Notes: generated by a model not told the origin, from the letters alone. 64,000 bases of DNA from Elusimicrobiota bacterium (GCA_035533295.1 DATLUA010000014.1:28534-92533); one strand, 5' to 3'; shown: positions 15,098 to 50,972, counted from the stretch's first letter. Numbers and translations are program-made.

Positions 15098-18066
15098 AAG
15101 TCGCCCTGGTCCAGGCGCCCTACGGCTACCGCGGCCGCGAGGCCCCGCCCTTTTCCGTAGTTTGCCTGGCCGGCTACGTGCGCCATCACGGCCATGCGCC
15201 GCTTTCCATCGATTTCGGCAACGCCCTTTACCATGCCAGTTCCCCGGATTCGCGGGTCATGTGGAATGCCGACCGGTATTCCTTCTGGGAAAATCCCGAC
15301 GCCATCGAACGCCTGCTTCATGAGACCCGTGGAACCACGGACGCTCTTATCCGGCGCATTCTCGAGAGCGGCGCGCGCGTCATCGGCTTCGCGACGCATA
15401 CCACGTCTTTTCTGGCGAGCTTGGCGCTGGCCGAAAGAATCAAGCGCGAGGATCCCTCTCGCCTCATCGTTTTCGGCGGCTACCAGTGCGCGCGCGAGAA
15501 GTCCGGCCTCGCCTTCGCGGCCGATTGGCGCGTCGACGGCGTCGCCGTCGGCGAGGGGGAGCAAACCCTCGTCGAAGCCCTGGCCGGCGTGGAGCGCACG
15601 GGACGCCTGCCGGCAATTCCTGGCCTTCTGGTGCGCGGCGAGGACGGCCGCGTCGTCGATTCCGGCGACCGCGAGCCCATCATGGACATGGACTCGATGC
15701 CGTTCCCGGATTATTCCGACTTTCGGGAGGACATCCGCGCCGGGCTTTATTCCGATCCGCGCCGCCTCGATGTCTTCGACGGGCGCAGTTGCGTGCGGCG
15801 CTGCGCTTTTTGCAACGAGTGGCAGTTTTGGGGGCGCTTCCGCTCCCGCAGCGGACGGCGGATTTTAGAGGAAATTCGGCACCAGATGTCGGAGCATCCC
15901 ACCATCAACCATTTTTATTTTACGGGGCTTCTGGTTAACGGCAATCTGCGCGAGCTCTCGCGTTTCTGCGACTTGGTTCTGGAAAGCGGCCTCAAGTTCA
16001 CCTGGGGCGGGCAGTCCATCGTCCAGCCCGGCATGGATGAAAAGATGCTCAAGAAGATGGCCGCGGCCGGCTGCCGGTGGCTCGGCTACGGCGTCGAGAG
16101 CGGATCTGAGGCGGTGCGCTGGCGCATCAATAAGAAATTCACCAACGAGAACGCATACAAGACGCTCCGAGCGACGGCGGAGGCGGGCATCAAGGCCCAA
16201 ATCAACGTCATGTTCGGCATGCCCAGCGAAACGCGTGACGAATTTCAGGAGACGCTGTCCTTCTTGACCCGCGTCAGACCGTACCTGGACTCGATTCTGG
16301 CCAGCCAATCCTTCTGCGTCATCGATAAGGACACGCCCCTGCACCGCAATCCCGAGCGCTACGGGATCACCAATCAGGATCACCACCTTTTTTGGGAATC
16401 CAACGGCGGCGAGAACAACTACGCCGAGCGCTTCCGGCGCTATGAAGAATTTTGCAAGCTGGCGCTGTTCTTGGGAGTTCCGGAAACTTCGGGCGTGCTC
16501 TCGCGCAAGCCGGATAAGTGGTTTTTGCTGGGCTCGTATTACGAGTATAAAAAGCAGCCGCTCAAGGCCGTGCTCTATCTGCGCCGCTCTCTCCTCCATG
16601 AAATTGTTGGCAAGGACACTCTGACCCGGCTGGCCGGGCTTTACGCGCAATTGCGGCATCCGGCCCGCGCCTGGGCTTTACTGCAGGCGGCCCTGAGTCT
16701 GACGCCCGAGGGCGCTGCGGATGCCGGCGACGATAGCCTGCGCGTCCGCCGGGACGCCCTTTTTCCTTCCGTTCAGGATAAGTCCCTCGCGATGATCTGG
16801 CTCAGGCGCAGGCCGTGGGGACGCGCCCTGCGCCTCAAAGAGGCGGATTCAGTTGCTGCGGAGCGTAACGGCACGGGGGAAGCCGCGCGCCGCGCAGCGA
16901 ACATCGCCTTGAACGGGGACGAGTTTAACGGCCGCAAGGAGGTCCTTTCCTCGACCCCGTCGTTGGTCACTTTGGGGACCCATAACGCGTGCAACGCCAA
17001 GTGCGTCTTTTGTCTGGAAGGCAGCTATTCGCGCTTTAGCCTCGATATCTACAAGAAATTTTTCGAGGCGAAGATGGGACACTTCATACGCCAAGCGGAT
17101 CGGGTGACTTTCACCGGCTTTGGAGAAATCCTGTGGATACCCGGCATCGAGGAGTTCTTGGACTACATCAATGAGACTCTCCCCGACGCGGAGAAAATTT
17201 TCACGACCAATGGGACGCCGCTGCGTCCTTCGGTTCTTGAACGCATCGCGAAGGGGAAATACGGCATCCAAATCTCGCTGCATGCCTCCCACGCCGCGCT
17301 TCATCAGGAATTGACCCTCTTGAACGGGCAGTTCGGACAAATCTTGGAAAATATCAGAAGCCTAAGCGCACTGCGGCAGCGCCCTGGATTGGATAAAAGG
17401 ATTTTCGTTCATTTAGTCAACGTTCTGACCCGGCGGAATATCGACGATTTGACCGATTTTATCCGAATGTCCGTGGATTTGGGCGTTCAGAGCGTCCGCT
17501 GTCAGCATGTGACGATGTTCGTTCCCGAGCATATCGAGCAATCTTGCTTTTTCGATCAGGAACGGGCCAACGCCAGCATCCGACGCGCCGCGACCTTGGT
17601 GGAGGCGATCAAGCTCAAGCACCCGAAGACGACTTTTATTGCCTCGTTGCCGCCTCTTTTTGGTTCCCGCGCCCAACTGCAAAACACCGTCTGTTACGAT
17701 CCGTGGCAGCATGTCTATGTCGAACTCCAGGGCTCGGTCATTCCTTGCTGCATGTGGGGCGACCACATTGGGAACTTGAACAAGGGCGATGATATCGACA
17801 AGGTGTGGAACAGCCGATTCTACCAGGACTTGCGCCGCGGCATGGCTTCCGGGGATCCGCATCCTTGGTGCAAAAGCTGCGTGCGCTACGCCGGCTACAA
17901 CGTGGACAGTATTTTCTGCCACATCACCAACCGTCCCGAGGCCCAAAAGGCAGTTTTACGGGAAGTTCTGCGGCGAGGCTTGCCTCTGGAAAAATCCGAC
18001 AAGGCCGCGGCCGCGAAAATGCTCGGCAAGAATATGCCTGCCGGTTCGGGGGTCCTCGCGGCATGA
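15094..18066 (+). CDS. fusion: B12-binding-domain radical SAM + TPR-like linker + second radical SAM/SPASM domain
   Basis: The N-terminal half has MKVALVQAP, a GEGEQTL cobalamin-domain motif and CVRRCAFC. The C-terminal half has CNAKCVFC plus SPASM (VIPCCMWGDHIGNL...VWNS...CKSCVRYAG). ATGA overlap with the upstream gene at 15094. The ORF is trimmed from 15025. Confidence 0.85.
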   Translation: MKVALVQAPYGYRGREAPPFSVVCLAGYVRHHGHAPLSIDFGNALYHASSPDSRVMWNADRYSFWENPDAIERLLHETRGTTDALIRRILESGARVIGFATHTTSFLASLALAERIKREDPSRLIVFGGYQCAREKSGLAFAADWRVDGVAVGEGEQTLVEALAGVERTGRLPAIPGLLVRGEDGRVVDSGDREPIMDMDSMPFPDYSDFREDIRAGLYSDPRRLDVFDGRSCVRRCAFCNEWQFWGRFRSRSGRRILEEIRHQMSEHPTINHFYFTGLLVNGNLRELSRFCDLVLESGLKFTWGGQSIVQPGMDEKMLKKMAAAGCRWLGYGVESGSEAVRWRINKKFTNENAYKTLRATAEAGIKAQINVMFGMPSETRDEFQETLSFLTRVRPYLDSILASQSFCVIDKDTPLHRNPERYGITNQDHHLFWESNGGENNYAERFRRYEEFCKLALFLGVPETSGVLSRKPDKWFLLGSYYEYKKQPLKAVLYLRRSLLHEIVGKDTLTRLAGLYAQLRHPARAWALLQAALSLTPEGAADAGDDSLRVRRDALFPSVQDKSLAMIWLRRRPWGRALRLKEADSVAAERNGTGEAARRAANIALNGDEFNGRKEVLSSTPSLVTLGTHNACNAKCVFCLEGSYSRFSLDIYKKFFEAKMGHFIRQADRVTFTGFGEILWIPGIEEFLDYINETLPDAEKIFTTNGTPLRPSVLERIAKGKYGIQISLHASHAALHQELTLLNGQFGQILENIRSLSALRQRPGLDKRIFVHLVNVLTRRNIDDLTDFIRMSVDLGVQSVRCQHVTMFVPEHIEQSCFFDQERANASIRRAATLVEAIKLKHPKTTFIASLPPLFGSRAQLQNTVCYDPWQHVYVELQGSVIPCCMWGDHIGNLNKGDDIDKVWNSRFYQDLRRGMASGDPHPWCKSCVRYAGYNVDSIFCHITNRPEAQKAVLREVLRRGLPLEKSDKAAAAKMLGKNMPAGSGVLAA

Positions 18067-22164: not shown

Positions 22165-23337
22165 ATGAAGACATCGACCATGGAAGCTGAAGCGTTGGCT
22201 GCGGTCGCGCAAAAAACGCCCCCCACTTTCTCCGCGCTTCGCCGCCGCCTTTTAGAGCAGCGGCAGCGCGAAAATGTCGCGCTCAACAATCGGGAATGGG
22301 AAGAGAAAAAAATAATTCTTTCCAGCACCCCGCAACGAATCTTCCTGCAAATCAACGCCGTGTGCAACGCGGATTGCGTCTTCTGCTCCAAGGGCTACGA
22401 TTACCCGCTTTTCCGCATTGATGAATACAGGGAGAAATACGGGAGGCAGATCACCCCGGTGCTGCAAAAAGCGCGCGAGGTCATTCTGACCGGCTCGGGC
22501 GAGTTCATGGGCCTGCCGGACGCCCCCAAGATCATCCGCTACTTCAACAACGAGTTCCCTCACGTCGAAAAATACATCGCCACCAACGCCTCCCATCTCA
22601 AACCCGAGATTGTGGATTTAATCGCGGGCTCCGGCAGCCGCTACACCCTGCAGATCTCGCTGCACGGCAGCGACGAGGAAACCCACAAGCTCATGATGCG
22701 CTACAACTCTTATCCGCGCGTCATGGAAAACGTCCGCCGACTGATGGAGGCGCGCGGCCGCGGCGGCAATCTCTCGATTTCCTTCATGTTCGTCATGACG
22801 ACCTTGAACGTGGAAAACCTTCCGGATTTTGTGCGCTTCGCCAAGGACATGGGCGCCGAACGGGTCTTGGCGGGCTATTTCTACATCTACGAGGCGCAGC
22901 AAAAATACCTGTCCCTCTATTTCAAGCAGGACTTGGCCAATAGAATCATCGATGAGGCCCGGCGCGTCGCGCAAGAAGTGGGCATCGAGGTCCGCCTGCC
23001 GCACAAGTTCGGGCAGCGGCCCGAGGCGTCCTCCAAGCCCACCTCCTGCATCGAGCCGTGGCATCAGGTGATGGTCAATCCTGACGGGGCGGTTCTTCCC
23101 TGCGACGTCTATGGGGGCTTCAACGAGAACTTGAACCAGAAAAGCTTTATGGAAATCTGGAACGGACCGGCCTACCGCGTGATTCGGGCCGCCCTGCGTC
23201 GAGGCGGGGGGTGCCTGACCACCTGCCCGCGGCATAACCCCATCGGCATCAACGATTGGCGCGCGCACGTCATCCACCGCCCCAAAGAGGACCGCCAAAT
23301 CGCGAAGGAGTATCGGGAGGCCCTGAGAAAGCCATGA
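22165..23337 (+). CDS. radical SAM/SPASM domain protein
   Basis: CNADCVFC motif. C-terminal SPASM (MVNPDGAVLPCDV...FMEIWNGPAY...GGGCLTTCP). Confidence 0.85.
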   Translation: MKTSTMEAEALAAVAQKTPPTFSALRRRLLEQRQRENVALNNREWEEKKIILSSTPQRIFLQINAVCNADCVFCSKGYDYPLFRIDEYREKYGRQITPVLQKAREVILTGSGEFMGLPDAPKIIRYFNNEFPHVEKYIATNASHLKPEIVDLIAGSGSRYTLQISLHGSDEETHKLMMRYNSYPRVMENVRRLMEARGRGGNLSISFMFVMTTLNVENLPDFVRFAKDMGAERVLAGYFYIYEAQQKYLSLYFKQDLANRIIDEARRVAQEVGIEVRLPHKFGQRPEASSKPTSCIEPWHQVMVNPDGAVLPCDVYGGFNENLNQKSFMEIWNGPAYRVIRAALRRGGGCLTTCPRHNPIGINDWRAHVIHRPKEDRQIAKEYREALRKP

Positions 23338-24293
23338 ACGCCGAAACCTCCCTGAACATGGCTTCCGCCTTGCCCAAGCGCACGGTTGTTTTCGCCTGGG
23401 ACATGCACTACAGTTGCAACTACCGCTGCCCTTACTGCTGGTACACCACGACCGGCTGGACGGAGCTGGCCAAGAAAAGCGTTTACAAGACGGCCAAGGA
23501 GTGGGCCGCGGTGTGGGAGCGGATGCACCGAAAATACGGCCGTTGCCAGCTGCGCATCACCGCGGGCGAGCCCTTCACATACCCCGATTTCCCGGACATC
23601 GTCAAAACCCTGACGCAGTGGCACGATGTGCAAATCACCAGCAACTGCTCGAACACCGAGGCCATGGAGAAATTCGCCGCCCAGGCCGATCCGGCCCGCG
23701 TCGAGGTGGACTGCACGTTCCATCCCCTGCAGGGCGAGTTCGAGGCTTTCGTGGAGAATGTTCTGCGCTTGAGGCGCCGCCAATTCACCGCCAACGTTTG
23801 CTACCTCGCCTATCCGCCGCAGATGCCCCGGATGGGAGAGTTCAAGAAACGCTTCAAGGACCGCGGCGTCTACATGAACATGGCCATCTTTTGGGGAAAG
23901 TACAAGGACAAGGACTATCCGTTCGCCTATACCGAGCAGGAAAAAGCCTGGATCAAGGAAGTCATCGGGTATGAAACCGGCCCCGAGACCGTCAATCTTG
24001 ATCCGCTGGTCATTAAAGGGAAAGTTTGCGGCGCCGGCCAGCGCTACGCCGTGGTGCAGGCCGACGGCAGGGTCTACCGCTGCGGCCAGCTTTGCCACGA
24101 GGGCATGTCCTTGGGCAGCATTTTCGATCCGGGGTTCGAGCTTTATCCCACCGGACGGCCCTGCGCCGTGGACTATTGCAAGTCCAAGGAATTTCAAGCG
24201 GCCTGGGAAGACGAGGAAAAGCAGAAGATGCTGCAGAAAAACGAAATTTTGGCTGAGGACGCCGGCGCCGCGGCGCCGGCACAGCGCGCATGA
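23334..24293 (+). CDS. small radical SAM paralog A (CNYRC-x-YC family, partial SPASM)
   Basis: FAWDMHYSCNYRCPYCW, a GEP motif (AGEPFTYP) and a C-terminal CGAGQRYAVVQADGRVYRCGQ...PCAVDYC. ATGA overlap at 23334. Confidence 0.85.
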   Translation: MNAETSLNMASALPKRTVVFAWDMHYSCNYRCPYCWYTTTGWTELAKKSVYKTAKEWAAVWERMHRKYGRCQLRITAGEPFTYPDFPDIVKTLTQWHDVQITSNCSNTEAMEKFAAQADPARVEVDCTFHPLQGEFEAFVENVLRLRRRQFTANVCYLAYPPQMPRMGEFKKRFKDRGVYMNMAIFWGKYKDKDYPFAYTEQEKAWIKEVIGYETGPETVNLDPLVIKGKVCGAGQRYAVVQADGRVYRCGQLCHEGMSLGSIFDPGFELYPTGRPCAVDYCKSKEFQAAWEDEEKQKMLQKNEILAEDAGAAAPAQRA

Positions 24294-25297
24294 CCTCCGA
24301 GCGCGCCGGAACCGCCCTGGAGCCGTCCGATAAGACGGCGTGGCCCTGGTGGAGCAACGAGGTCTGGGACCGCGTGTCTTTTACCTGGGATTTATGGTAC
24401 GGCTGCAACTACCGCTGTTCCTACTGCTGGTGGGAAATGGACAACCTCTGGGCGGAACTCGCGAAAAAACACCGCATCCTGCCACCGGAGCAGTGGCTTG
24501 CGTGCTGGGACCGGATTTACGATCTTTATGGAACGACGCGCGTGGACGTGCTTGGCGGGGAACCCCTGCGCTATCCTTCGTGGAAGCAGCTTTTCGAAGG
24601 GCTTTCGCGGCGGCATCGGGTTTCCATTACGACGAACCTTTCCGTTTCGATGGCGGATTTGCGGGAGATGACGGACCGGGTTTCCCCCGAGCGTATTCAT
24701 TTCGCGGCCAGCTACCACCCGCAGTTCGCGAAGTGGAATGATTTTATCGAGAAGATAGGATTCCTGAAGGAGCGGGGCTACTTCCCGCACGTTCTGGTCG
24801 TGGCCTGGCCGCCGCTGCTCAAGGACCTTGCGCGTTGGAGCGATTTTTTTCGGCAAGCGGATGTTCCCTTCACTACCAGCGTTTTCCAGGGTCGATATGA
24901 GGGAAGGGAATATCCCGAATCCTACACGACGGATCAGAGAGCGCTTTTGGGCTTGAATATTCCCATCGCGGAAGAGCAGCGCTACCGCTTGGAGCGACAA
25001 AGCACACAGGGCAAGCTCTGCGGCGCCGGGCACGTCTACGCGAACATCAAAGGGAACGGGGACGTCTACCGCTGCGGCCAGGATTGCCTCGGCGGCGCCA
25101 AGCCGCTTGGGAATATTTTCGATGTGGGCTTCGGTTTGCACAAGGCGCCGGCGCCCTGCCCGTATAAGCACTGCAGTTGCGGTGAGTTCGCGTTTTTATG
25201 GGAGGATTGGACCCGGAAAAAAGGGCGGCTTGAATTCGCCGTTGCCAATTCCCTGCGCAGACAAGAGGCGCAAACGCGGGAGGCCCGGCATGGCTAG
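24290..25297 (+). CDS. small radical SAM paralog B
   Basis: FTWDLWYGCNYRCSYCWW, GGEPLRYP and CGAGHVYANIKGNGDVYRCGQ...PCPYKHCSCGEF. ATGA overlap at 24290. Confidence 0.85.
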   Translation: MTSERAGTALEPSDKTAWPWWSNEVWDRVSFTWDLWYGCNYRCSYCWWEMDNLWAELAKKHRILPPEQWLACWDRIYDLYGTTRVDVLGGEPLRYPSWKQLFEGLSRRHRVSITTNLSVSMADLREMTDRVSPERIHFAASYHPQFAKWNDFIEKIGFLKERGYFPHVLVVAWPPLLKDLARWSDFFRQADVPFTTSVFQGRYEGREYPESYTTDQRALLGLNIPIAEEQRYRLERQSTQGKLCGAGHVYANIKGNGDVYRCGQDCLGGAKPLGNIFDVGFGLHKAPAPCPYKHCSCGEFAFLWEDWTRKKGRLEFAVANSLRRQEAQTREARHG

Positions 25298-26138
25298 CCC
25301 GCAGGTTCGCTTCACTTGGAACATCCACTGGAGCTGCAACTACCGCTGTTCCTACTGTTTTTTTGATGGACGCTGGGCGGAGTACGGACGTCGCAACGTC
25401 TACCAGAGCGTGGATCAGTGGATGGGACACTGGCGGCGGATTTATGAAAAATACGGGCGGTGCTATCTGACCATCAACGGAGGTGAGCCATTCGCGTATC
25501 CCAACTTCGTGGAGTTGATGGTCCAGGTCTCGTCTCTGCACTGGCCCATCAACGTCACCACGAACACGTCCTTGCACCTTAAAGATTTTGTCGGCCGCGT
25601 CGATCCGGCCAAGGTCTCCATCTCCATCAGCTTTCATCCGCAGTACCACACGATCGATGAGTTCCTCAAAACCGTGCGGTTCTTGAGAGAGCGCCGCGCG
25701 AACATCGGATGCATCAATTTCGTGGCCTGGCCGCCTTTTTTGAAGGATTTGGCCGAATATATCCGCCGGTTTCAGGCGGAAGGGGAGAGCCTCAAGGTTA
25801 TTCCCTTCATCGGCGCTCATGAGGGTGTGAATTATCCAGACAACTACAGCGAAGGGCAAAAAAAAATCCTGGGGCTCACCGATAATTGGCTGGAGAGCAA
25901 GCGCCACGAAGGCATGCTCTGCCGCGCCGGGCACCAGTCGGCGCTTCTTCTGCCGACCGGCAAGGTGGCCCGTTGTGGGCAAATCGGCGACCGCTATCTC
26001 ATCGGGGATTTTTTCCAGGAAGGGTTTTCTTTGATGAAAGAGCCCATGCCCTGTGATGAGCAATTTTGCCCTTGCGATGAGTGGAAAGTCATCCCGGATG
26101 AAAAGCCGCCGGAGAAGGCGGGGGCGTGGCTGCCGTGA
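25290..26138 (+). CDS. small radical SAM paralog C
   Basis: FTWNIHWSCNYRCSYCFF, GGEPFAYP and CRAGHQSALLLPTGKVARCGQ...PCDEQFCPCDEW. Start at the ATG at 25290, which overlaps the upstream stop by 8 nt. Confidence 0.85.
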   Translation: MASPQVRFTWNIHWSCNYRCSYCFFDGRWAEYGRRNVYQSVDQWMGHWRRIYEKYGRCYLTINGGEPFAYPNFVELMVQVSSLHWPINVTTNTSLHLKDFVGRVDPAKVSISISFHPQYHTIDEFLKTVRFLRERRANIGCINFVAWPPFLKDLAEYIRRFQAEGESLKVIPFIGAHEGVNYPDNYSEGQKKILGLTDNWLESKRHEGMLCRAGHQSALLLPTGKVARCGQIGDRYLIGDFFQEGFSLMKEPMPCDEQFCPCDEWKVIPDEKPPEKAGAWLP

Positions 26139-27502
26139 TCCGATTAACGTTGGTCCAATGCCCCGCTTGGGGCGTCGACGATCCGCCTCTGGGGGTGGCC
26201 CAACTGCTCGGCTGCGTGGCGCACTGCAACCATCACGGCCGTCCCTTCGACGTCAATATCCGTCTTTGGCAGGAATGCGCTCCAGAGGAGCGGCGTTTCT
26301 GGGGTCAGGATGTTCTGCCATCGTGGAATGATCGCTCTTGGGTCGCGGCTAGGGCCGAGGCATGGGAAGAGAAGCTCTCGCGTTATGCGGAGGAGATATT
26401 GGCCGATGATCCGCGAGCCGTGCTTTTGTGGGCGGCAGAAGGGTCCCAATGGTTTAGCCTTGAGATGGCCAAGCGCATCAAGACGCGCAATGGCACCGCG
26501 ACGGTTTTCATCGGCGGGCCCTATTTCAACGATGCGGCCCGGGTGAGTGCCTTTATCGCCGAGCCCTGCATCGACGGAGTCATGGCTGGAGCGGGCGACG
26601 ACCTGCTGGCGAAGCTCCTGGGGCTTTACCAGGCCTGCGGCCGCTGGATGCCATTACCGGGGATGACGGTTAAGGAGAAAGGGGCCATCGCTAGCGGAGG
26701 CCGCCCGGTACCTTTTACGTTCGACTGGGACTTGGCGCCTCTGTGCGATTTTTCTGGATTCAAAACGGAACTTTACCGCAAGCCCCTCCAGATGCCGCTC
26801 GCGTCGAGCCGCGGCTGCCGCTGGTCCCACCCTTCCTGCGCGCGGGATTATTGGGGCAAATATTCATTCAAAAGCGGAGACAGGATATTCAGCGAGGCAG
26901 CCAAGCAGCTCCACGATCAGAGATTTTGGCGGCACCTTGAGCTTTACGATCTCGACGCGAACGGCAAACCGGACAGCCTCAAGCGCTTTAGCGAAATGAT
27001 TCTTGAGAACCGTCTTCCTGAGGCCGGCTTGACCTGGAGCATGAACGCCTCGCTTGATTCGGGAGCGGACGCGCAAAGACTCGCCCTTTTCGCGAGCGCG
27101 GGCTGTCGGGAAATCGTTTACACCTTGGAGGCCGATTCGCCGCCCGTCGTGCCGCAAGCGGCTGAACGAATTCTTCGAGATACCCATGAGGCTGGGATCG
27201 ATTGCGCTGTTTTTCTCTCTTCTATTGGAGGCGCGGATACGCCTAAATCCGATTTTTCGTCTATTTTAAGCGCAGTCGACCATCTGCGGCCATGGCTTGA
27301 CGGCGTCGTGATTGACAGGACGGTTTTAGACGTGCCTGCCCGTCACCGGGGCTCGGTGCCGGGCATTGCGGCGCGCGAGGAGCAACTGGAGATTTTTTGT
27401 GGGACCTTGGGAATGACGTGGTCTCCATTTTTCAGCCAGGGAACGACGGGGTTGCGCGTCGCGAGCCGCAGCGCAAAGCCCGCCGTGTTGGCGGCGCGCT
27501 AG
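26126..27502 (+). CDS. degenerate B12-binding-domain radical SAM-like protein (CxxxHxxC; likely non-canonical or non-catalytic)
   Basis: B12-rSAM-like N-terminus (LTLVQCPAWGVDDPPLGVAQLLGC) with a degenerate GEGE motif (AGAGDDLL). The motif position reads ASSRGCRWSHPSCARDYW, so the middle Cys is replaced by His. GTG start at 26126, overlapping the upstream gene. Confidence 0.7.
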   Translation: MAAVIRLTLVQCPAWGVDDPPLGVAQLLGCVAHCNHHGRPFDVNIRLWQECAPEERRFWGQDVLPSWNDRSWVAARAEAWEEKLSRYAEEILADDPRAVLLWAAEGSQWFSLEMAKRIKTRNGTATVFIGGPYFNDAARVSAFIAEPCIDGVMAGAGDDLLAKLLGLYQACGRWMPLPGMTVKEKGAIASGGRPVPFTFDWDLAPLCDFSGFKTELYRKPLQMPLASSRGCRWSHPSCARDYWGKYSFKSGDRIFSEAAKQLHDQRFWRHLELYDLDANGKPDSLKRFSEMILENRLPEAGLTWSMNASLDSGADAQRLALFASAGCREIVYTLEADSPPVVPQAAERILRDTHEAGIDCAVFLSSIGGADTPKSDFSSILSAVDHLRPWLDGVVIDRTVLDVPARHRGSVPGIAAREEQLEIFCGTLGMTWSPFFSQGTTGLRVASRSAKPAVLAAR

Positions 27503-27518
27503 AAAGGGAGGAAGGCCT

Positions 27519-28595
27519 ATGGGTTCGTGCGGGACGGGAGGTTGCAGCGGTTGCGGCACGAAGCACGAGGGGCCGCAGGCTCCTGAAGGAGACATGGCCG
27601 CGCACGGAGAGTTGGACGCGGCCATTCCCCACAAAGAGCAGGAATACCGTCCTCTGCTGCCTCGTCACGCGCCGCCGTACAAGGTCCATTGGAATTGGGA
27701 GATCATGCTGCCCTGCAATTACCGCTGCAGCTATTGTGTCGTCCATAACGAAGCGGCGCAGTATCTTATCCTTGGCGTCCCCGAATGGCGCAAGATTTGG
27801 GAGCGGATGTTCAAGCTCTACGGTTGCTGCCAGGTGCGCTTTGCGGGCGGCGAGCCGACGATTTATCCAAACTTCATCGATTTAGTCGGGATGATTCTCG
27901 AGATGCATACCGTGGATATCACGACGAACCTGAGCTTCGACATCGAAGAGTGGATTAAGAAAGTCCCGAGCCAGGGCATCGCGATTTCCGGAAGCCTGCA
28001 CTTGGAGCATCAGAAGCCCGAGGATTTCTTGAAAAAACTTCTCGTCTTGCGCAATAAGGGGAACCAGCTCATCTCCGCATCCTTGGTCGCCTATCCCACT
28101 TATGTGGATAAAATCGACGGCATTAGGGCTATGTTCGAAAAGGAGAACGTTCTCTTCAAGATTATTCCGTTTAACGGCGTCTACGAGGGCAAACGCTATC
28201 CCGGCGCTTATACCGATATGGAGCGGGTCATGCTGGGGATGCAGGTGCAGCGATCGACCGATGAACTCGGCAAGACGCTCAACAAGCAGTGGCAGGACTA
28301 CGCCAATGCCAAGCCCAACGATAAGAACTTCCTGGGCATGCCCTGTCATATGGGCGAGATGTACGCCAAGATATATTCCGATGGGACGGTGCGCCGCTGC
28401 TGCCACACGGGCGTCGATGTCCTGGGCCACATCACCGATGAAAATCTGCGGCTTTTCGAGAAGGCGGAGCCCTGCACGGTGATGAGCTGCAGCTGTTGGA
28501 AGCCCATGGTGGCCGGGAAATACGAGGAGAAGGTACACATGCTGTGGCAGTCGGCGGATCATCCTGTTTATCCGGTGAAGGCGCCCAATGCCTGA
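27519..28595 (+). CDS. small radical SAM paralog D with Cys/Gly-rich N-terminal extension
   Basis: N-terminus MGSCGTGGCSGCGTKHEG followed by a ~50-aa linker, then VHWNWEIMLPCNYRCSYCVV, GGEPTIYP and PCTVMSCSCWKP. Strong RBS (GGGAGGAAGG). Confidence 0.85.
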   Translation: MGSCGTGGCSGCGTKHEGPQAPEGDMAAHGELDAAIPHKEQEYRPLLPRHAPPYKVHWNWEIMLPCNYRCSYCVVHNEAAQYLILGVPEWRKIWERMFKLYGCCQVRFAGGEPTIYPNFIDLVGMILEMHTVDITTNLSFDIEEWIKKVPSQGIAISGSLHLEHQKPEDFLKKLLVLRNKGNQLISASLVAYPTYVDKIDGIRAMFEKENVLFKIIPFNGVYEGKRYPGAYTDMERVMLGMQVQRSTDELGKTLNKQWQDYANAKPNDKNFLGMPCHMGEMYAKIYSDGTVRRCCHTGVDVLGHITDENLRLFEKAEPCTVMSCSCWKPMVAGKYEEKVHMLWQSADHPVYPVKAPNA

Positions 28596-29229
28596 AAATA
28601 AAAACGCGTCGTTTTGCCGCTGGCGGCGGTTCGGAAAGGCCGGCGTCCGGTTGGACGCCGAAAAAATCCTCTATATAGATCCGATCGTCATCGAGCCCGG
28701 CGCGCCCAAGGCCGACATCGTGCTGCTGACCCATGGTCACGCGGAACACTTTTCTCCGGACGACGTTGCGAAGGTGTCCAGCGCGCAGACCGTGGTGGCA
28801 GGGCCCGCGGCCTGCGTGGGGCTTTTCCGGCTCAATCAACTGCCGTTTGAAGCGGGGGAATCGAAAACGGTTCTAGGAGTCTCCGTCATGGCGACGCCCG
28901 CGTATTGTCCGGATGATGCCCGGCATCCCAAAGAAGCCGGAGGGTTGGGATACCTCATCGAGATGGGCGGCGTCCGCATTTTCTGCGCCGGAGATACTGC
29001 TGTCGTGCCGGAATTGCGCGGCCTCAAGGCGGACGCGGGCTTTCTTCCGGTGGCCGAGGACTTGATGTCCGCCCGAACGGCGGTGGCCCTGGCTCGAGAC
29101 ATGGGGCTGCGGATGGCGGCGCTCACGCATGCCGAGCCGGGCTCCGCGCTGGAAAAGGATTTTATCGAGTTGGCCCAAAGAGAAGGCATCGCGGCGTGGC
29201 TGCCGGAGCCGGCTTTCGCGGCGGCTTGA
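28588..29229 (+). CDS. MBL-fold metallo-hydrolase
   Basis: HGHAEH metal-binding motif (LLTHGHAEHFSPDD), a later Asp (FCAGDTAV) and His (LTHAEPG). 213 aa. Overlaps the upstream gene by 8 nt. Confidence 0.75.
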   Translation: MPENKNASFCRWRRFGKAGVRLDAEKILYIDPIVIEPGAPKADIVLLTHGHAEHFSPDDVAKVSSAQTVVAGPAACVGLFRLNQLPFEAGESKTVLGVSVMATPAYCPDDARHPKEAGGLGYLIEMGGVRIFCAGDTAVVPELRGLKADAGFLPVAEDLMSARTAVALARDMGLRMAALTHAEPGSALEKDFIELAQREGIAAWLPEPAFAAA

Positions 29230-29256
29230 CGGCAGTCGAAGGCACAGGAGATTGAT

Positions 29257-30582
29257 ATGAGCGGATGCGGCGACAAGTGCGGAGGATGCGGAGGGGGGTG
29301 CGGATCTGAATCCAAGCCCAAGGTGAGCAGCTTCGCGCCGGTGAAGCTATCCTTGACGTCTCGTGCCGCTTCGGCGCCGACGGCTGCTGTGGAAAAAAAC
29401 AGCGGCGGCCGAACGCCCGGCTTTAGGCGCTACCTGCCGCCCTTTAAGGTCTTCTTCACCTGGGACATCCAGTACGCCTGCAACTACCGCTGCAGCTACT
29501 GCATCATCTTCAAGAGCCCGCAATGGGATTCCTTCCTGTCCAAGAAGGACCGGCCGCCGATCCCTGCGGAGCGCTGGATGGAAATCTGGGACGACATCCA
29601 CGATCAATACGGCAGCGCTCACATCCACTGTTCAGGAGGCGAGCCGTTCTATTATCCGCGCTTCATCGACATCCTGGCCCACATCACCAAGAAGCATACG
29701 ATGGAGTGCGACACCAACTTGTCCTTTCCTGTCGACCAATTCATCGACAAAGTCGAGCGGGGGCGCTTCCGTTTCGCGCCGTCGTTTCATCCCGAGTTCG
29801 CGGAGATAGGCCCCTACATCGAAAAATGCGTGCGCTTAAGGAAGGCGGGCTATGACTTGGAGGGAGTTAATTATATCTGCTGGCCGCCGCATTTAAAGAA
29901 AATCCCTGAGTTCCAAAAGGCGTTCAACAAAATAGGCGTGGTTCTGACGCTTATTCCCTTTCGCGGGAGCTTCGCGGGTAAGGATTATCCCGACGCCTAC
30001 ACTCCGGAGGAGAGGCGCTGGATCAATCAGAACAGCGGCAATCCGGTGCTTTCGGAGGACTACGGCAACTGGTACAACGGCACCGGCCAGGGATCCAAAA
30101 AACACGAGAATCTGATGGTGGAGAAAGTTCCGCAGCAAGAACCTGAGCCGTTGCCGTCTTCCGCGGCCGTCGCGCCGATTACGCCGGCCCAGCCGGCGGC
30201 GGCACCTTCGCAAATTGCGGCGGGCCCCACGCCGGAGCCTTCTGAGGTCGCCTCGGAGACGGCGGCCAGGGCGCTGGAGGAAATTCGCGCCCACGAGGCG
30301 CAAAAGACGCGGGGAGAAGGTTGCGCCAGCCATGGTCGTACGGCCGTCAATTGCCGTGCCGGCCAGATGTACGCCAAAATCCATCCCGACGGCAACGCGC
30401 TGCGGTGCTGCTTCATCGACGAGCGAGGCTCGATGGGCAATCTCATCGACGGGACCTTTAAGCTCTACGATGAGCCGGAACTCTGCGAATATCCGGCCTG
30501 CAGCTGCTGGAAGAGCATGATTGTCGGAGAGGAGGGCCGCTGGCTGCGCCATTGGGTCGGCGTGGCCAAAAATGCCGCATGA
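29257..30582 (+). CDS. small radical SAM paralog E with Cys/Gly-rich N-terminal extension and internal Pro/Ala-rich insert
   Basis: N-terminus MSGCGDKCGGCGGGCGSES followed by a linker, then FTWDIQYACNYRCSYCII, GGEPFYYP, a PEP/PAQPAAAP-rich insert and CRAGQMYAKIHPDGNALRCC...CEYPACSCWKS. Confidence 0.85.
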   Translation: MSGCGDKCGGCGGGCGSESKPKVSSFAPVKLSLTSRAASAPTAAVEKNSGGRTPGFRRYLPPFKVFFTWDIQYACNYRCSYCIIFKSPQWDSFLSKKDRPPIPAERWMEIWDDIHDQYGSAHIHCSGGEPFYYPRFIDILAHITKKHTMECDTNLSFPVDQFIDKVERGRFRFAPSFHPEFAEIGPYIEKCVRLRKAGYDLEGVNYICWPPHLKKIPEFQKAFNKIGVVLTLIPFRGSFAGKDYPDAYTPEERRWINQNSGNPVLSEDYGNWYNGTGQGSKKHENLMVEKVPQQEPEPLPSSAAVAPITPAQPAAAPSQIAAGPTPEPSEVASETAARALEEIRAHEAQKTRGEGCASHGRTAVNCRAGQMYAKIHPDGNALRCCFIDERGSMGNLIDGTFKLYDEPELCEYPACSCWKSMIVGEEGRWLRHWVGVAKNAA

Positions 30583-31133
30583 AAATTTATTTAAGCTACA
30601 GTCTCGCCGAGAAAGATAAGTCTATTTTGGATAAGATCGTGGGACTTTCCTCCGATTTCGGCGTCACGGTGGTGCCGGCTCCTCGTTCATGGCCGTCTCA
30701 GGACGCCGTGCCGCCGGAGGTCGCCGAAGCCATCGACTCCGCGGATTTCGCACTTTTTTGGCTGACGGTTGACGGTCCGGCCCTCTCCTGCATCAACTTG
30801 GAGGCTGGTTATATACGGAATTCTCCCCGACGACTGCCTTTTATGATTTTTTCGCCTAACGGCTTTGAGCCCTCGGGATGCCTGCAGTATCGTCCTTTCG
30901 TTCGCTTCAATATCCGCGACACGCGAATCACCATCGGCCAGATCTGGGATTTTCTCCACCATGAATACTGCGACCAGCCGCAAGCGGCTGCTGCTTTTGG
31001 GGGCGTTTTATTGGCTCTCGTCGGGATGCTGTTGATGCGTCACGCGCCTGAGGTGCCGCCTCCCACGGATGATGAAAAATACCATGAGCAATTGCGCCAA
31101 GCCGCGGTCTTGCTGCGCGGAGGTCAGTCGTGA
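30579..31133 (+). CDS. hypothetical membrane-anchored protein (possible TIR-like fold)
   Basis: Starts MKIYLSYSLAEKDKSI, which is reminiscent of a TIR betaA strand, and has a C-terminal TM helix (AAFGGVLLALVGMLLM). ATGA overlap at 30579. The ORF is trimmed from 30552. Confidence 0.45.
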   Translation: MKIYLSYSLAEKDKSILDKIVGLSSDFGVTVVPAPRSWPSQDAVPPEVAEAIDSADFALFWLTVDGPALSCINLEAGYIRNSPRRLPFMIFSPNGFEPSGCLQYRPFVRFNIRDTRITIGQIWDFLHHEYCDQPQAAAAFGGVLLALVGMLLMRHAPEVPPPTDDEKYHEQLRQAAVLLRGGQS

Positions 31134-43838: not shown

Positions 43839-43839
43839 C

Positions 43840-44787
43840 TCATTCGGGCGCGCACGAGGTCCAAGGCGAGGCGTACTTTCCGATGTTGTTGAGTATATAG
43901 CGGACATGTTTGGCTCCGGCGGAATTCCCAGCCCTACTGTAATCCGAAAGAGCCTTGTGCCAAAAAGCCTCCGCCTTGGCCGTGTCGCCGCAGGCCGCCT
44001 CCGCCGCGCCCATTTTCAGCAGGATGTCCATCGCGTGCGTGGATTGCGGATTGCAGGCGAGGAGCGTCAAGTCTCCCCGGCCTGCTTGGCGCGCCGTGGA
44101 CCAGTCGTCCATGCCTTCCCATATATCAAGGGCCATCGCGGCCGCCGCGATGGCGTCCGAGCAGTCCGACGGCGTCGCGAATTCGCGTCGATTTTTTTTA
44201 AGCGACGCCTGGAGCGCGGAGAGTCGGGTGCTGGCCTCTTTCGGCCGCCCCGCGGCGACGGCGTGCTGCGCTTGGCCAAGGCGTAGAATCGCCTTTTCTA
44301 ATGCGGTGCAGCCAGGGGAGGATGAGCACCGTTGGCGAGCGTCGGTCAGGGCGTGCTCTGCCTCGGATTTTTGCCCCAGGGCATCCAGAATTTCGGCCCG
44401 ATGAATGATGATCCAGGCCCACATCGGGGAGAATGAGCCGCAGTCCTGGGCCGCCTGCTCCAGCAAACCCGCCGCCTTCTTTTGTTCGCCGGAAGCGGCG
44501 TAAACTTGGGCCAGGCGCTGGAGGGAGTCGGCGTAGTCGCTTCCGGACTGGCGGCCTTCTTCGCGGTAAAGGCGCAGGGCGGTCTTGAACTCTTGTTCGG
44601 CTTGCGGGAGTTCGCCGGCTCCCAGCGCGATTTCGCCGGCGCGCTGGTGGGCCAGGGGGTCGCCTGCGGTGCTGGGCGAAAAAGGGAAGAGATGGAAAAA
44701 GCGCAGGGTTAACGCTAGAAGCGCGGCCAGGATGGCGAAGGAAATTATCGAGCGGGGAAAGCGCCTCATTAACGGCAATTTTCTCAT
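43840..44787 (-). CDS. membrane-anchored TPR-like protein
   Basis: N-terminal TM helix (IISFAILAALLALTL) and helical A/L/E/Q-rich repeats. Confidence 0.6.
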   Translation of the reverse strand: MRKLPLMRRFPRSIISFAILAALLALTLRFFHLFPFSPSTAGDPLAHQRAGEIALGAGELPQAEQEFKTALRLYREEGRQSGSDYADSLQRLAQVYAASGEQKKAAGLLEQAAQDCGSFSPMWAWIIIHRAEILDALGQKSEAEHALTDARQRCSSSPGCTALEKAILRLGQAQHAVAAGRPKEASTRLSALQASLKKNRREFATPSDCSDAIAAAAMALDIWEGMDDWSTARQAGRGDLTLLACNPQSTHAMDILLKMGAAEAACGDTAKAEAFWHKALSDYSRAGNSAGAKHVRYILNNIGKYASPWTSCAPE

Positions 44788-47307: not shown

Positions 47308-47316
47308 GCGTCGGGC

Positions 47317-50961: not shown

Positions 50962-50972
50962 GTCGAATCGAG

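What the first reader, a model, noticed from the sequence alone, without database searches (positions are those of the whole stretch)
27519..29320. Cys/Gly-rich N-terminal modules on two of the five paralogs (MGSCGTGGCSGCG... and MSGCGDKCGGCGGGCG...)
Only paralogs D and E begin with a short Cys-Gly cluster (3-4 Cys within 15 residues, both starting M-x-x-C-G), followed by a ~45-60-aa low-complexity linker before the conserved core. These could be metal-binding tails or an extra Fe-S site. They could also be a built-in substrate-like segment, by analogy with Cys-rich rSAM substrates such as SCIFF, though not homologous to them. Such an arrangement would partly explain the absence of a separate precursor gene.
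Basis: partly seen in the sequence, partly recalled or inferred. Interest (0 to 1): 0.6.

Follow-up and report, generated by a model that had tools for sequence, protein, structure and literature searches.

The report
Cysteine-glycine metal-binding tails on two enzymes
Two of five sister radical-SAM enzymes in an Elusimicrobia gene cluster start with a short, conserved cysteine/glycine tail on a flexible tether, which most likely holds an iron-sulfur cluster or another metal rather than serving as a built-in substrate.

Summary
Paralog D (27519-28595) starts MGSCGTGGCSGCGTKH and paralog E (29257-30582) starts MSGCGDKCGGCGGGCG. Both ATGs are the first start codon after an in-frame stop and follow a Shine-Dalgarno site. 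Paralogs A-C and the other 31 genes tested lack such a start.

The caps are under selection. In 14 distinct D orthologs (74-92% identity) M1, C4, C9 and C12 never vary, a His follows in 13 of 14, and Met26 is not conserved. Cap codons differ synonymously between genomes. E-type caps occur in 8 of the 9 loci (7 of 8 distinct genomes) that could be judged from DNA; one public gene call had cut the cap off. More distant homologs truly lack caps.

AlphaFold2 gives both caps pLDDT below 50. No Pfam or NCBIfam family matches, SCIFF included. No separate Cys/Gly peptide gene, PqqD/RRE, peptidase or exporter accompanies them.

The E cap closely resembles synthetic all-glycine peptides (GCGGGCGGCGGCG) that assemble redox-active [4Fe-4S] clusters. 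The D cap has the Cx4Cx2C+His pattern of known metal sites.

Best reading: a tethered Fe-S or other metal knuckle, a built-in mini-ferredoxin (any metal about 0.7; Fe-S relay about 0.45). A built-in substrate is unsupported but not excluded (about 0.1). Moderately interesting; a new variant of a known kind.

The parts
27506..27511 (+). Shine-Dalgarno site (GGGAGG) of paralog D, 7 nt before the ATG and 4 nt after the stop codon of the upstream gene F
   Evidence: Read directly from the sequence. An equivalent GGAGG precedes the cap ATG in most orthologous loci examined; it is absent in L009.
27519..28595 (+). Paralog D: radical-SAM enzyme with a twitch/half-SPASM C-terminal part, 358 aa
   Evidence: Pfam PF04055 scores 34.0 bits against a cut-off of 29.5. 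The AF2 model has pLDDT 86.7. The nearest solved folds are anSME, CteB, SkfB, BlsE and viperin, TM about 0.5.
27519..27566 (+). D cap, residues 1-16 (MGSCGTGGCSGCGTKH). Cys4 is at 27528-27530, Cys9 at 27543-27545, Cys12 at 27552-27554 and His16 at 27564-27566.
   Evidence: M1, C4, C9 and C12 are invariant in 14 distinct orthologs, and a His lies 3-6 residues after C12 in 13 of 14. Codons change synonymously compared with L006. pLDDT is below 50.
27567..27650 (+). D tether, residues 17-44, with conserved E23-G24-D25 (27585-27593), G30, L32, His38 (27630-27632) and Tyr43
   Evidence: Alignment A2: the motif is conserved in all capped orthologs, and the whole segment is missing in the cap-less homologs P0012-P0015. 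pLDDT is about 57-63.
27714..27737 (+). Radical-SAM cluster motif of D, CNYRCSYC (Cys66, Cys70, Cys73)
   Evidence: Invariant columns in alignments A1-A3.
29246..29250 (+). Shine-Dalgarno site (AGGAG) of paralog E, 6 nt before the ATG
   Evidence: Read directly from the sequence. Orthologs L003, L009 and L012 have AAGGAGG 5 nt before their cap ATG.
29257..30582 (+). Paralog E: radical-SAM enzyme of the same family, 441 aa, with an internal low-complexity insert
   Evidence: Pfam PF04055 scores 39.7 bits. The AF2 model has pLDDT 76; residues 1-44 and 279-327 are below 50. The database protein P0084 is 100% identical.
29257..29304 (+). E cap, residues 1-16 (MSGCGDKCGGCGGGCG). Cys4 is at 29266-29268, Cys8 at 29278-29280, Cys11 at 29287-29289 and Cys15 at 29299-29301.
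   Evidence: Caps with 3-4 Cys in CG-x-x repeats occur in 8 of the 9 E-clade loci (7 of 8 distinct genomes, L003 and L013 being one genome) that could be judged from DNA: window, L006, L008, L003/L013, L009, L012, L010 and L007. TGC/TGT and Gly codons vary synonymously. L085 has no cap.
29305..29418 (+). E tether, residues 17-54: Ala/Ser/Pro-rich, poorly conserved, predicted disordered
29479..29502 (+). Radical-SAM cluster motif of E, CNYRCSYC (Cys75, Cys79, Cys82)
   Evidence: Invariant columns in A4.
26126..27502 (+). Gene F: a protein with a B12-binding-like domain and a radical-SAM-like part, directly upstream of D. A possible partner of the D tail.
   Evidence: An F ortholog sits directly upstream of D in all 10 capped-D loci and in none of the cap-less loci L001, L002, L014 and L015. 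In the window and L006 the CxxxCxxC motif has decayed to CRWSHPSC.
28588..29229 (+). Metallo-beta-lactamase-fold hydrolase gene between D and E
   Evidence: Pfam PF12706 and PF13483. It holds the same position in L003-L006, L008, L009 and L011-L013 (L010 gave no MBL match).
30579..31133 (+). Gene X, an uncharacterised protein of about 185 aa directly downstream of E (start MKIYLSYS...)
   Evidence: It follows every E ortholog found, including the cap-less one in L085. It has no family match.
23256..26138 (+). Paralogs A, B and C (23256-24293, 24290-25297, 25107-26138): same family, no Cys cap
   Evidence: Alignment A1. Orthologs in L004 and L005 start just before the conserved core without Cys.

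Best explanation
The two caps are real, translated parts of the mature enzymes. Each is a short Cys/Gly metal-binding knuckle at the very N-terminus: Cys3 plus His in D, Cys4 in E. Each sits on a flexible tether of about 30-40 residues in front of a radical-SAM core with a twitch-like C-terminal part.

Most likely mechanism (inferred, not shown): under the anoxic conditions these enzymes need, the thiolates hold an iron-sulfur cluster. For E this would be a [4Fe-4S] cluster. For D it would be a Cys3His-ligated [4Fe-4S] or [2Fe-2S] cluster. The tether lets this built-in mini-ferredoxin swing between an outside reductant and the enzyme's own SAM or auxiliary clusters. For D it could also reach the B12-domain protein F encoded directly upstream.

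Shown: the caps are translated, conserved and confined to two paralog lineages. They are predicted to be disordered and have ligand-like conservation.

Inferred: that a metal is bound, which metal it is, and the electron-relay role.

I put 'binds some metal' at about 0.7 and the specific Fe-S relay version at about 0.45.
For: 1. The caps are translated and under selection.
- The cap ATG is the first start after an in-frame stop and is preceded by GGAGG in the window and in most orthologous loci examined.
- Cap codons change synonymously between genomes while the amino acids stay the same.

2. Conservation looks like that of metal ligands.
- In 14 D orthologs M1, C4, C9 and C12 are invariant.
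- A His follows C12 in 13 of 14, and H38 and E23-G24-D25 are invariant.
- Positions 3, 5, 6, 10 and 14 vary freely.
- E caps keep 3-4 Cys in CG-x-x repeats, often followed by His.
- The ortholog P0082 has a His/Glu-rich linker, GDEHGEHEEGGGCG...NGHAHGNGDDHGNG.

3. The chemistry is feasible.
- Synthetic peptides Ac-CGGGCGGCGGC and Ac-GCGGGCGGCGGCG assemble EPR-active [4Fe-4S] clusters.
- A close variant of these peptides (GCGGGCGGCGGCGY) and the 16-mer KLCEGGCIACGACGGW accept electrons from an [FeFe]-hydrogenase (PMC10946529).
- The E cap, GCGDKCGGCGGGCG, has spacing Cx3Cx2Cx3C against Cx3Cx2Cx2C in those peptides.

4. The D spacing matches known metal sites.
- Cx4Cx2C plus His is the pattern of the Rrp44 CR3 metal site (PMC3467083).
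- The only PDB sequence resemblance to the cap itself (residues 3-21) is to that motif: CGAPGCAACGGAHEGP against CGTGGCSGCGTKHEGP, E=5.9, not significant. A second weak match covers only linker residues 13-41.
- Two more weak, insignificant matches are to a rubredoxin-like knuckle (E=0.072) and to the [2Fe-2S] loop region of MmoC (E=0.15).

5. Both caps are predicted to be flexible, with pLDDT below 50. This resembles the disordered, metal-binding N-terminal extension of HypB (PMC12284835).

6. No ORF of the 12-46 kb radical-SAM operon matches a ferredoxin or flavodoxin family.

7. The cap is an addition, not a replacement. Cap-less close homologs keep all the core Cys residues.
Against: - No metal can be seen from sequence alone. 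AF2 does not dock the cap onto the core or form a site with core residues.
- Spacing is not strict: Cx3C or Cx4C in D; Cx2C or Cx3C in E; only 2-3 Cys in P0078 and L007.
- All resemblances to known metal motifs are statistically insignificant and rest on 12-19 residues.
- Close homologs work without a cap (P0012-P0015 and P0085), so the cap is dispensable for the basic chemistry.
- The first Cys is almost always at residue 4. That could instead point to a mononuclear site using the N-terminal amine, as in HypB.
- The link between the D cap and gene F comes from one narrow clade with conserved gene order, so the 10 loci are not independent observations.
Confidence: 0.45

Rival explanations
1. 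The cap binds a single metal ion (Zn, Ni, Co or Fe) and serves structure or docking. It would fold the tail onto the core or clamp D to F, and E to a neighbour, like the Rrp44 CR3 CCCH site or the N-terminal Ni site of HypB. It would not relay electrons.
For: - The Cx4Cx2C plus His pattern of D equals the CR3 motif, which pairs three N-terminal Cys with a His from the downstream domain and affects subunit association (PMC3467083; weak sequence match).
- The first Cys is at residue 4 in nearly all D and E caps, and residue 2 is Gly or Ser. The initiator Met is therefore probably removed (general rule for methionine aminopeptidase). A free amine then lies near the thiolates, as in the HypB site, which uses the amine plus Cys2, Cys5 and Cys7 (PMC12284835).
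- H38 and E23-G24-D25 in the D tether are invariant.
- All capped-D loci have F directly upstream.
Against: - AF2 does not dock the tail on the core.
- The E tether is poorly conserved and low-complexity, which does not suit a docking element.
- There is no nickel or zinc enzyme context. The Gly-only spacers resemble Fe-S cluster peptides more than zinc knuckles.
- The link with F is not phylogenetically independent.
Confidence: 0.22
2. The cap is a built-in substrate. This is an enzyme-tethered Cys-rich core that D, E or the other radical-SAM enzymes of the operon cross-link or otherwise modify. The MBL-fold hydrolase might then release it.
For: - Radical-SAM substrates such as SCIFF and ranthipeptide precursors are Cys-rich with Cx3C-type repeats (from my own knowledge).
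- The tightly packed operon leaves no room for a separate precursor gene.
- The tether is long enough to fold back into the barrel opening (an inference).
- An MBL hydrolase gene lies between D and E.
- A cap-less D homolog (L001) is preceded by a PqqD-like gene, so some relatives may act on peptides.
Against: - No hit to SCIFF or any precursor family even at E<=10.
- No RRE/PqqD in the window or in capped loci.
- None of the operon ORFs scanned against Pfam matches a peptidase or exporter family.
- Loci whose homologs lack the cap encode no stand-alone Cys/Gly peptide.
- Between the Cys residues there is almost only Gly and Ser, so few acceptor side chains are available.
- Only one copy per enzyme would give a stoichiometric, single-turnover product.
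- An N-terminal core would be the reverse of the usual leader-then-core order.
Confidence: 0.1
3. The cap does metal-free thiol chemistry. It would be a flexible dithiol/disulfide or persulfide arm that shuttles reducing equivalents or sulfur to the active site.
For: - Clustered Cys on a flexible arm is the layout of sulfur- or electron-shuttling tails in other systems (from my own knowledge, for example the C-terminal arm of DsrC).
- Conservation of the Cys residues.
Against: - Three to four closely spaced Cys plus a conserved His are more than a redox pair needs.
- No sulfurtransferase or thioredoxin-like gene was found in the operon.
- In a cell rich in Fe-S clusters, such a peptide would be expected to bind metal.
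Confidence: 0.08
4. The cap is an artefact or a neutral feature. Either translation really starts downstream, or the cap is a GC-rich simple-sequence extension with no function.
For: - D has an internal Met26, and some E orthologs have an internal Met that a public gene caller chose as the start (P0076).
- More distant homologs lack the cap.
Against: - Met26 is replaced by L, E or D in orthologs.
- The ribosome-binding site precedes the cap ATG, and that ATG is the first start after a stop.
- Cys is invariant despite synonymous codon changes across orthologs of 74-92% identity.
- The chance of such a Cys cluster is 0.002 or less per protein.
Confidence: 0.03

Closest known systems
Synthetic minimal [4Fe-4S] peptides ('ferredoxin maquettes': KLCEGGCIACGACGGW, CGGGCGGCGGC, GCGGGCGGCGGCG; PMC10946529)
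   Same: Both have four Cys within 11-13 residues, separated almost only by Gly, with spacing Cx3Cx2Cx2C. The E cap has Cx3Cx2Cx3C or Cx3Cx3Cx3C. The synthetic peptides assemble redox-active clusters, and two of them (the 16-mer and GCGGGCGGCGGCGY) can act as redox partner of an Fe-S enzyme.
   Different: They are man-made free peptides, not natural protein tails. The last spacing differs by one residue. D has only three Cys plus His. Cluster binding by the natural caps has not been tested.
HypB N-terminal extension (CxxCGC nickel site; PMC12284835)
   Same: Both are Cys3/Gly motifs at the extreme N-terminus of a disordered extension about 45-75 residues long, in front of a folded enzyme domain. 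In both, the linker carries additional His or acidic residues.
   Different: The spacing in HypB is Cx2CxC starting at Cys2. The host is a GTPase in hydrogenase maturation. There is no sequence homology, and the window has no hydrogenase or nickel context.
CR3 motif of Rrp44/Dis3 (Cx4Cx2C + His; PMC3467083)
   Same: The spacing and composition match the D cap (CGAPGCAACGGAHEGP against CGTGGCSGCGTKHEGP). Both are N-terminal and include a His as a candidate fourth ligand.
   Different: CR3 belongs to a eukaryotic exosome nuclease, and its fourth ligand comes from a PIN domain. The match has E=5.9, so it is a shared motif, not homology.
SCIFF/ranthipeptide precursors and their radical-SAM maturases
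   Same: Both are Cys-rich stretches with short regular spacing in a radical-SAM context. The D and E cores share the SPASM/twitch fold class with CteB.
   Different: SCIFF is a stand-alone peptide of about 45 aa with its Cys at the C-terminus. Its maturase has its own family model and a peptide-binding domain. Here there is no HMM match, no RRE, and the cap is fused at the enzyme's N-terminus.
STM4011-family radical-SAM proteins (NCBIfam NF038073) and SPASM/twitch enzymes (anSME, SkfB, BtrN, viperin)
   Same: NF038073 is the best family match for all five paralog cores (E 1e-15 to 1e-20). All have the CxxxCxxC motif, a partial TIM barrel, and a C-terminal Cx12Gx4C element typical of twitch/SPASM domains.
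   Different: Scores of 56-73 bits lie far below the 200-bit cut-off. The Pfam SPASM score is below its threshold. None of these families is known to have an N-terminal Cys/Gly tail.
[quoted passage not shown]
   Same: All have an extra Cys motif N-terminal to the catalytic domain that binds a second Fe-S cluster. In the corrinoid protein this is a mobile cluster domain that serves a B12 cofactor. That parallels a D tail placed next to the B12-domain protein F.
   Different: Those motifs lie in folded domains with family-specific spacing. Here the motif is a 12-16-residue knuckle on a disordered tether, with no homology to them.

Membership tests
Radical SAM superfamily (PF04055), D and E cores | A CxxxCxxC motif that binds the SAM-cleaving [4Fe-4S] cluster, and an HMM score above the gathering threshold | tested here: met
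   CNYRCSYC lies at D residues 66-73 and E residues 75-82. PF04055 scores 34.0 and 39.7 bits against a cut-off of 29.5. Fold search finds radical-SAM structures.
SPASM domain (PF13186 / TIGR04085) | A seven-Cys motif, Cx9-15Gx4C...Cx2Cx5Cx3C...C, binding two auxiliary clusters | tested here: not met
   D has C276-x12-G-x4-C294, then C295, C319, C324 and C326, with no Cx2Cx5Cx3C. PF13186 scores 17.1 bits for E against a cut-off of 21.5 and gives no hit for D. This fits a twitch-like single auxiliary site better.
STM4011 family radical SAM (NF038073) | HMM score of at least 200 bits | tested here: not met
   56.4 bits for D and 61.8 bits for E. They are distant relatives only.
SCIFF / ranthipeptide-type radical-SAM substrate | Match to a precursor family model (e.g. 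the SCIFF family) | tested here: not met
   No precursor family hit for any cap plus linker at E<=10 in NCBIfam or Pfam.
SCIFF / ranthipeptide-type radical-SAM substrate | A separate small precursor gene and a peptide-recognition (RRE/PqqD) element next to the maturase | tested here: not met
   No stand-alone Cys/Gly ORF in capped or cap-less loci. No PqqD-like sequence in the window or capped loci. AF2 shows no folded N-terminal domain.
SCIFF / ranthipeptide-type radical-SAM substrate | Covalent modification (thioether) of the Cys-rich segment | not testable with these tools
   This needs mass spectrometry of the expressed protein.
HypB-type N-terminal nickel site | A CxxCGC motif starting at Cys2, attached to a HypB GTPase domain | tested here: not met
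   The caps start at Cys4 with Cx3-4Cx2C, and the host is a radical-SAM enzyme. The motif definition comes from PMC12284835.
CR3-type CCCH metal site (Rrp44) | Cx4Cx2C near the N-terminus plus a conserved His as fourth ligand | tested here: inconclusive
   The spacing is met in 12 of 14 D orthologs; the other two have Cx3Cx2C. His is present near C12 in 13 of 14, and H38 is invariant. The sequence match is insignificant, E=5.9. Site geometry cannot be tested.
Plant-type [2Fe-2S] ferredoxin | Cx4Cx2C plus a fourth Cys about 29 residues later, in a beta-grasp fold | tested here: not met
   The first three Cys fit. No fourth Cys exists in the extension; His38 lies 26 residues after the third Cys. 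The only hit, to the MmoC Fe-S region, has E=0.15. The segment is predicted disordered.
Minimal [4Fe-4S]-binding peptide (works like, not a family) | Four Cys within about 12 residues with Cx3Cx2Cx2C-like spacing and small spacer residues; actual cluster assembly | tested here: inconclusive
   The sequence criterion is nearly met by E: Cx3Cx2Cx3C, or Cx3Cx3Cx3C in L003, L009, L010 and L012, compared with the peptides in PMC10946529. Cluster assembly cannot be tested here.

The most novel reading that the evidence does not exclude
The caps are enzyme-tethered core peptides. In this reading the operon of about 18 genes has no precursor gene because two of its own radical-SAM enzymes carry the Cys/Gly substrate at their N-termini. 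The neighbouring radical-SAM and B12 enzymes would modify it, and the MBL-fold hydrolase encoded between D and E might cut it off. This would be a RiPP-like pathway without a precursor gene, in which the core peptide sits in front of the enzyme instead of behind a leader.
Probability: 0.1. Interest if true: 0.8.

Novelty: new variant of a known kind. Interest (0 to 1): 0.42.

Why it matters
If the tails bind Fe-S clusters, they would be natural counterparts of the 11-16-residue Gly/Cys peptides that chemists designed as minimal ferredoxins. They would then be fused as a swinging electron-entry arm to radical-SAM enzymes.

That would give a simple model for how members of a very large radical-SAM operon (about 15 such genes, no ferredoxin or flavodoxin gene) receive their electrons. 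It would also offer a portable tag for activating radical-SAM enzymes in other hosts.

There is a practical point as well. Gene callers cut the tail off in at least one public ortholog, so constructs made from such annotations would lack it.

The tails also mark out two of the many paralogs in an uncharacterised Elusimicrobia locus as the first ones to express and test.

Tried and rejected
1. Profile search of the 5.8-billion-protein set with an alignment of D and E caps plus linkers (A6) found nothing at E<=10. The caps are too short and too biased in composition for this tool.

2. Exhaustive phmmer of D residues 1-44 against 1.84 billion representatives gave two hits. Both are long tandem-repeat proteins whose score is summed over 7-16 weak repeats, so they are spurious. 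The N-terminal module was therefore not found on any other protein family, though sensitivity is limited.

3. Metagenome DNA scan for an SD site followed by M-x-x-CG-x-x-CG-x-x-CG gave 79 loci.
- Almost all are (GC)n simple repeats or out-of-frame ORFs. One recurrent 25-codon ORF lies inside a group II intron reverse-transcriptase gene.
- No E orthologs were returned.
- One plausible unrelated capped protein turned up (L130), with no family match.

4. A lipoprotein or acylation signal is rejected. There is no hydrophobic signal peptide or lipobox, and MGxC dual acylation is a eukaryotic feature.

5. Cap compensating for lost core Cys ligands is rejected. Cap-less close homologs keep all the core Cys.

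6. Cap compensating for the decayed CxxxCxxC of F is rejected. F is intact in L003-L005, where D still carries the cap.

7. A link between the E cap and gene X is rejected. X also follows the cap-less E ortholog.

8. The nitrogenase-paralog context described for groundwater Elusimicrobia (bioRxiv 10.1101/765248) does not apply. No NifH/D/K-like gene was seen among the window ORFs scanned.

Full report
**What is at the coordinates.** The span 27519-29320 covers three things: all of paralog D (27519-28595, + strand, 358 aa), a metallo-beta-lactamase-fold gene (28588-29229), and the first 21 codons of paralog E (29257-30582, 441 aa).
- D begins MGSCGTGGCSGCGTKHEG, with Cys at residues 4, 9 and 12.
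- E begins MSGCGDKCGGCGGGCGSE, with Cys at 4, 8, 11 and 15.
- All five paralogs (A 23256-24293, B 24290-25297, C 25107-26138, D, E) are radical-SAM proteins. They share an invariant CNYRC(S/P)YC motif and a C-terminal Cys-bearing part.
- Their best family match is the STM4011 family, far below its cut-off at 56-73 bits against 200.
- The AF2 model of D is confident (pLDDT 86.7). Its nearest solved folds are SPASM/twitch enzymes (anSME, CteB, SkfB, BlsE, SuiB) and viperin, at TM about 0.5.

**Are the starts right?** Both cap ATGs are the first ATG/GTG/TTG after an in-frame stop.
- D's ATG lies 16 nt after the stop codon of the upstream gene, with GGGAGG 7 nt upstream.
- E's ATG has AGGAG 6 nt upstream.
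- In most orthologous loci a GGAGG-type site precedes the cap ATG; L009's D gene is an exception.
- Between the window and its closest relative, L006, the first 16 residues of D are identical. The codons for Gly2, Cys4, Gly5, Gly7, Gly11, Thr14 and His16 nevertheless differ synonymously.
- The E caps of L003, L009 and L012 show the same pattern.
- The caps are therefore translated and under purifying selection.

**Is it more than chance?** Cysteine makes up 1.77% of 36 window proteins.
- The chance of at least 3 Cys in the 15 residues after Met is 0.002, and of at least 4 Cys about 1e-4.
- Only D and E of the 36 genes qualify.
- I recognised 83 members of this enzyme family in the window and the fetched loci. 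Of these, 21 have at least 3 Cys within 16 residues upstream of the SAM motif. All but one of the 21 are D or E orthologs.

**Conservation and distribution.** The homologs come from Elusimicrobia and Omnitrophota metagenome-assembled genomes.

D clade (74-92% identity):
- All 14 distinct sequences carry M-(G/E)-x-C-x3-4-C-x-(G/S)-C.
- M1, C4, C9 and C12 are invariant, and Gly2 and Gly11 are nearly invariant.
- Lys lies 3 residues after C12 in 11 of the 14, and a His 3-6 residues after C12 in 13 of 14.
- The tether is conserved: (P/A)-E-G-D at residues 22-25, then G30, L32, H38 and (E/D)(E/D)Y43.
- The D linker is therefore a conserved module of about 44 aa, not low-complexity sequence.
- More distant D homologs (P0012-P0015, 59-73% identity, and those at 50% or less) truly lack the cap. 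In L001 and L002 the upstream gene ends just before their start codon.

E clade:
- The protein table suggested that several orthologs lack the cap. The DNA shows that the public call P0076 (MEGGLDH...) is cut short.
- L003/L013, L009 and L012 encode MGGCGGGCGSGCGSGCG(S/D)G(H/R), and L010 encodes MSECGSGCGSGCGSGCGH. In L003, L009 and L012 a perfect AAGGAGG precedes the ATG, and that ATG is the first start after a stop.
- Counting the window, L006, L008 (MGGCGDKCGGCGGGCG) and L007 (MSDCGGGCGSSCG), 8 of the 9 loci (7 of 8 distinct genomes) that could be judged from DNA carry a cap.
- L085 (P0085) does not; it has an in-frame stop 5 codons upstream.

Within each locus only the D-type and E-type genes, out of 8-12 paralogs, have caps.

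**Gene context.** D and E sit in a tightly packed + strand operon (12116-35865), followed by a convergent set on the - strand up to about 46.4 kb.
- Together these hold about 15 radical-SAM genes of the B12-binding and SPASM types. They also hold GDSL/SGNH-TPR, Sel1 and TPR proteins.
- Glycosyltransferases and a PMT_2/TPR protein follow.
- The gene order F(B12-like)-D-MBL-E-X-SPASM is conserved in the close relatives.
- All 10 capped-D loci have an F ortholog directly upstream, often overlapping or abutting D. The cap-less D homologs in L001, L002, L014 and L015 do not. These loci belong to one narrow clade with conserved gene order, so this is a lead, not independent evidence.
- X follows E whether or not E has a cap.
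- No ORF in the operon matches a ferredoxin, flavodoxin, peptidase, exporter or PqqD/RRE family.

**What the caps resemble.** AF2 gives pLDDT below 50 for D residues 1-19 and E residues 1-44, so both are flexible tails. AF2 cannot model metals.
- No Pfam or NCBIfam family matches the caps plus linkers at E<=10, apart from insignificant hits. These are a rubredoxin-like knuckle (E=0.072) and the [2Fe-2S] loop region of MmoC (E=0.15). SCIFF and the other precursor families do not appear.
- Against PDB sequences the only resemblance to the D cap itself is to the CR3 motif of human DIS3/RRP44: CGAPGCAACGGAHEGP against CGTGGCSGCGTKHEGP, E=5.9.
- CR3 is an N-terminal Cx4Cx2C that clusters with a His into a CCCH metal site (PMC3467083).
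- The disordered N-terminal extension of HypB binds Ni(II) through the N-terminal amine and Cys2, Cys5 and Cys7 of CxxCGC (PMC12284835). That is a precedent for a Cys3 motif at the extreme N-terminus of a flexible extension.
- The closest precedent is chemical. The peptides Ac-CGGGCGGCGGC-NH2 and Ac-GCGGGCGGCGGCG-NH2 have only Gly between four Cys. They assemble EPR-active [4Fe-4S] clusters, and a near-identical variant with one added Tyr accepts electrons from an [FeFe]-hydrogenase (PMC10946529).
- The E cap after Met1 and Ser2 reads GCGDKCGGCGGGCG, which differs from those peptides mainly by one residue in the last spacing.

**Most likely mechanism.** The caps are metal-binding knuckles. Most probably they are Fe-S sites, held on a tether that lets them act as a built-in mini-ferredoxin for the enzyme's own clusters. 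For D the tail might also serve the adjacent B12-domain protein F.
- Shown: translation, selection on Cys and His, restriction to two paralog lineages, predicted flexibility, and the absence of precursor-type features.
- Inferred: metal binding itself (about 0.7), Fe-S identity and a redox-relay role (about 0.45).
- A mononuclear Zn- or Ni-type structural or docking site, as in CR3 or HypB, is the main rival (about 0.22). The nearly fixed position of the first Cys at residue 4 favours it.

**Tests that came out negative for the substrate idea.**
- No stand-alone Cys/Gly peptide ORF occurs in loci whose D or E homologs lack the cap.
- No PqqD-like sequence occurs in the window or in capped loci.
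- The one PqqD gene I found lies next to a cap-less homolog in a differently organised locus.

**Searches that led nowhere.**
- The cap-profile search of the 5.8-billion-protein set returned nothing.
- The exhaustive phmmer search returned only two repeat-protein artefacts.
- The metagenome DNA pattern scan returned mostly simple repeats and out-of-frame ORFs. It gave one unrelated 167-aa protein with an MSGCGGGCGHGCGC start and no family match.

**Verdict.** The feature is a new variant of a known kind, namely a Cys-rich metal-binding N-terminal extension, here on an uncharacterised radical-SAM family. Interest is moderate (0.42). It would rise if the tails proved to be natural minimal [4Fe-4S] peptides or, less likely, tethered substrates.

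Noticed in passing
window 26126-27502 (gene F); L006 8659-9981: In the window and in L006, the B12-domain/radical-SAM-like protein upstream of D has lost the CxxxCxxC triad (CRWSHPSC, against CPWSCRFC, CPWRCDFC and CPWSCHFC in L003-L005). It is probably a non-catalytic pseudo-radical-SAM protein in this lineage.
   Followed up: partly
L003 11469-12578; L013 5415-6524; also L009 5466 and L012 4543: The public gene call for the E ortholog (P0076, which starts MEGGLDH...) is cut short by 39 codons and so loses the Cys cap. In L003 the corrected start overlaps the 3' end of the called MBL gene by about 70 nt.
   Followed up: yes
window 30091-30237 (E residues 279-327): E carries an internal Pro/Ala-rich low-complexity insert (pLDDT below 50), followed by a helix and an extra Cys-containing stretch (RGEGCASHGRTAVNC). 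Most E orthologs, at 330-380 aa, lack this.
   Followed up: no
L001 1-225: A PqqD/RRE-type peptide chaperone gene (PF05402, E=5e-15) lies directly upstream of a cap-less D homolog (73% identity) in a groundwater contig. Some relatives of this enzyme family may therefore act on peptides.
   Followed up: partly
window 12116-46426: This is a very large radical-SAM-rich locus with about 15 radical-SAM genes. It includes a 1013-aa fusion of B12-radical-SAM and SPASM (15025-18066) and a Sel1-repeat protein in which the SPASM hit comes before the radical-SAM hit (41901-43907). GDSL/SGNH-TPR proteins are interspersed, and the + strand operon leaves no room for a precursor gene. Radical-SAM-rich loci have been noted in groundwater Elusimicrobia (bioRxiv 10.1101/765248), but no nitrogenase paralog was seen here.
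   Followed up: partly
window 46492-54838: Glycosyltransferase genes (GT2, GT4) and a PMT_2/TPR membrane protein flank the radical-SAM locus. A homolog of the PMT_2/TPR protein lies upstream of the cap-less D homolog in L002. This hints at glycan or envelope modification rather than a classic peptide natural product.
   Followed up: no
proteins P0016-P0023, P0030-P0033, P0102-P0129 and others (Omnitrophota/Elusimicrobia): Many homologs are proteins of about 600 aa with two tandem copies of this radical-SAM module fused in one chain. The paralogs probably work in pairs.
   Followed up: no
proteins P0088, P0089 (Elusimicrobiales); P0167: Other branches of the family have a different N-terminal Cys3 motif, MNNCDSCAE(R/K)VC, directly before the conserved core with no linker. 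The first Cys is again at residue 4.
   Followed up: no
L130 1308-1811: An unrelated 167-aa helical protein of unknown family starts MSGCGGGCGHGCGC behind a strong AAAGGAGG site. It is the third of three tandem ~167-aa genes of similar composition (apparent paralogs, not tested by alignment), and the only one with a cap. Similar caps may therefore arise on other proteins.
   Followed up: partly
L143 4880 and about 20 further loci: A recurrent 25-codon Cys-rich ORF (MAGCGTNCGVCCGGNGSGSIHECEI) looked like a conserved peptide. In L143 it lies out of frame inside a group II intron reverse-transcriptase gene, so it is an artefact of a multi-copy element.
   Followed up: yes
window 30579-31133 (gene X): A conserved protein of about 185 aa with no family match follows every E ortholog. 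It starts MK(I/V)YLS.S and has a hydrophobic C-terminal stretch. Its start overlaps the E stop codon.
   Followed up: partly
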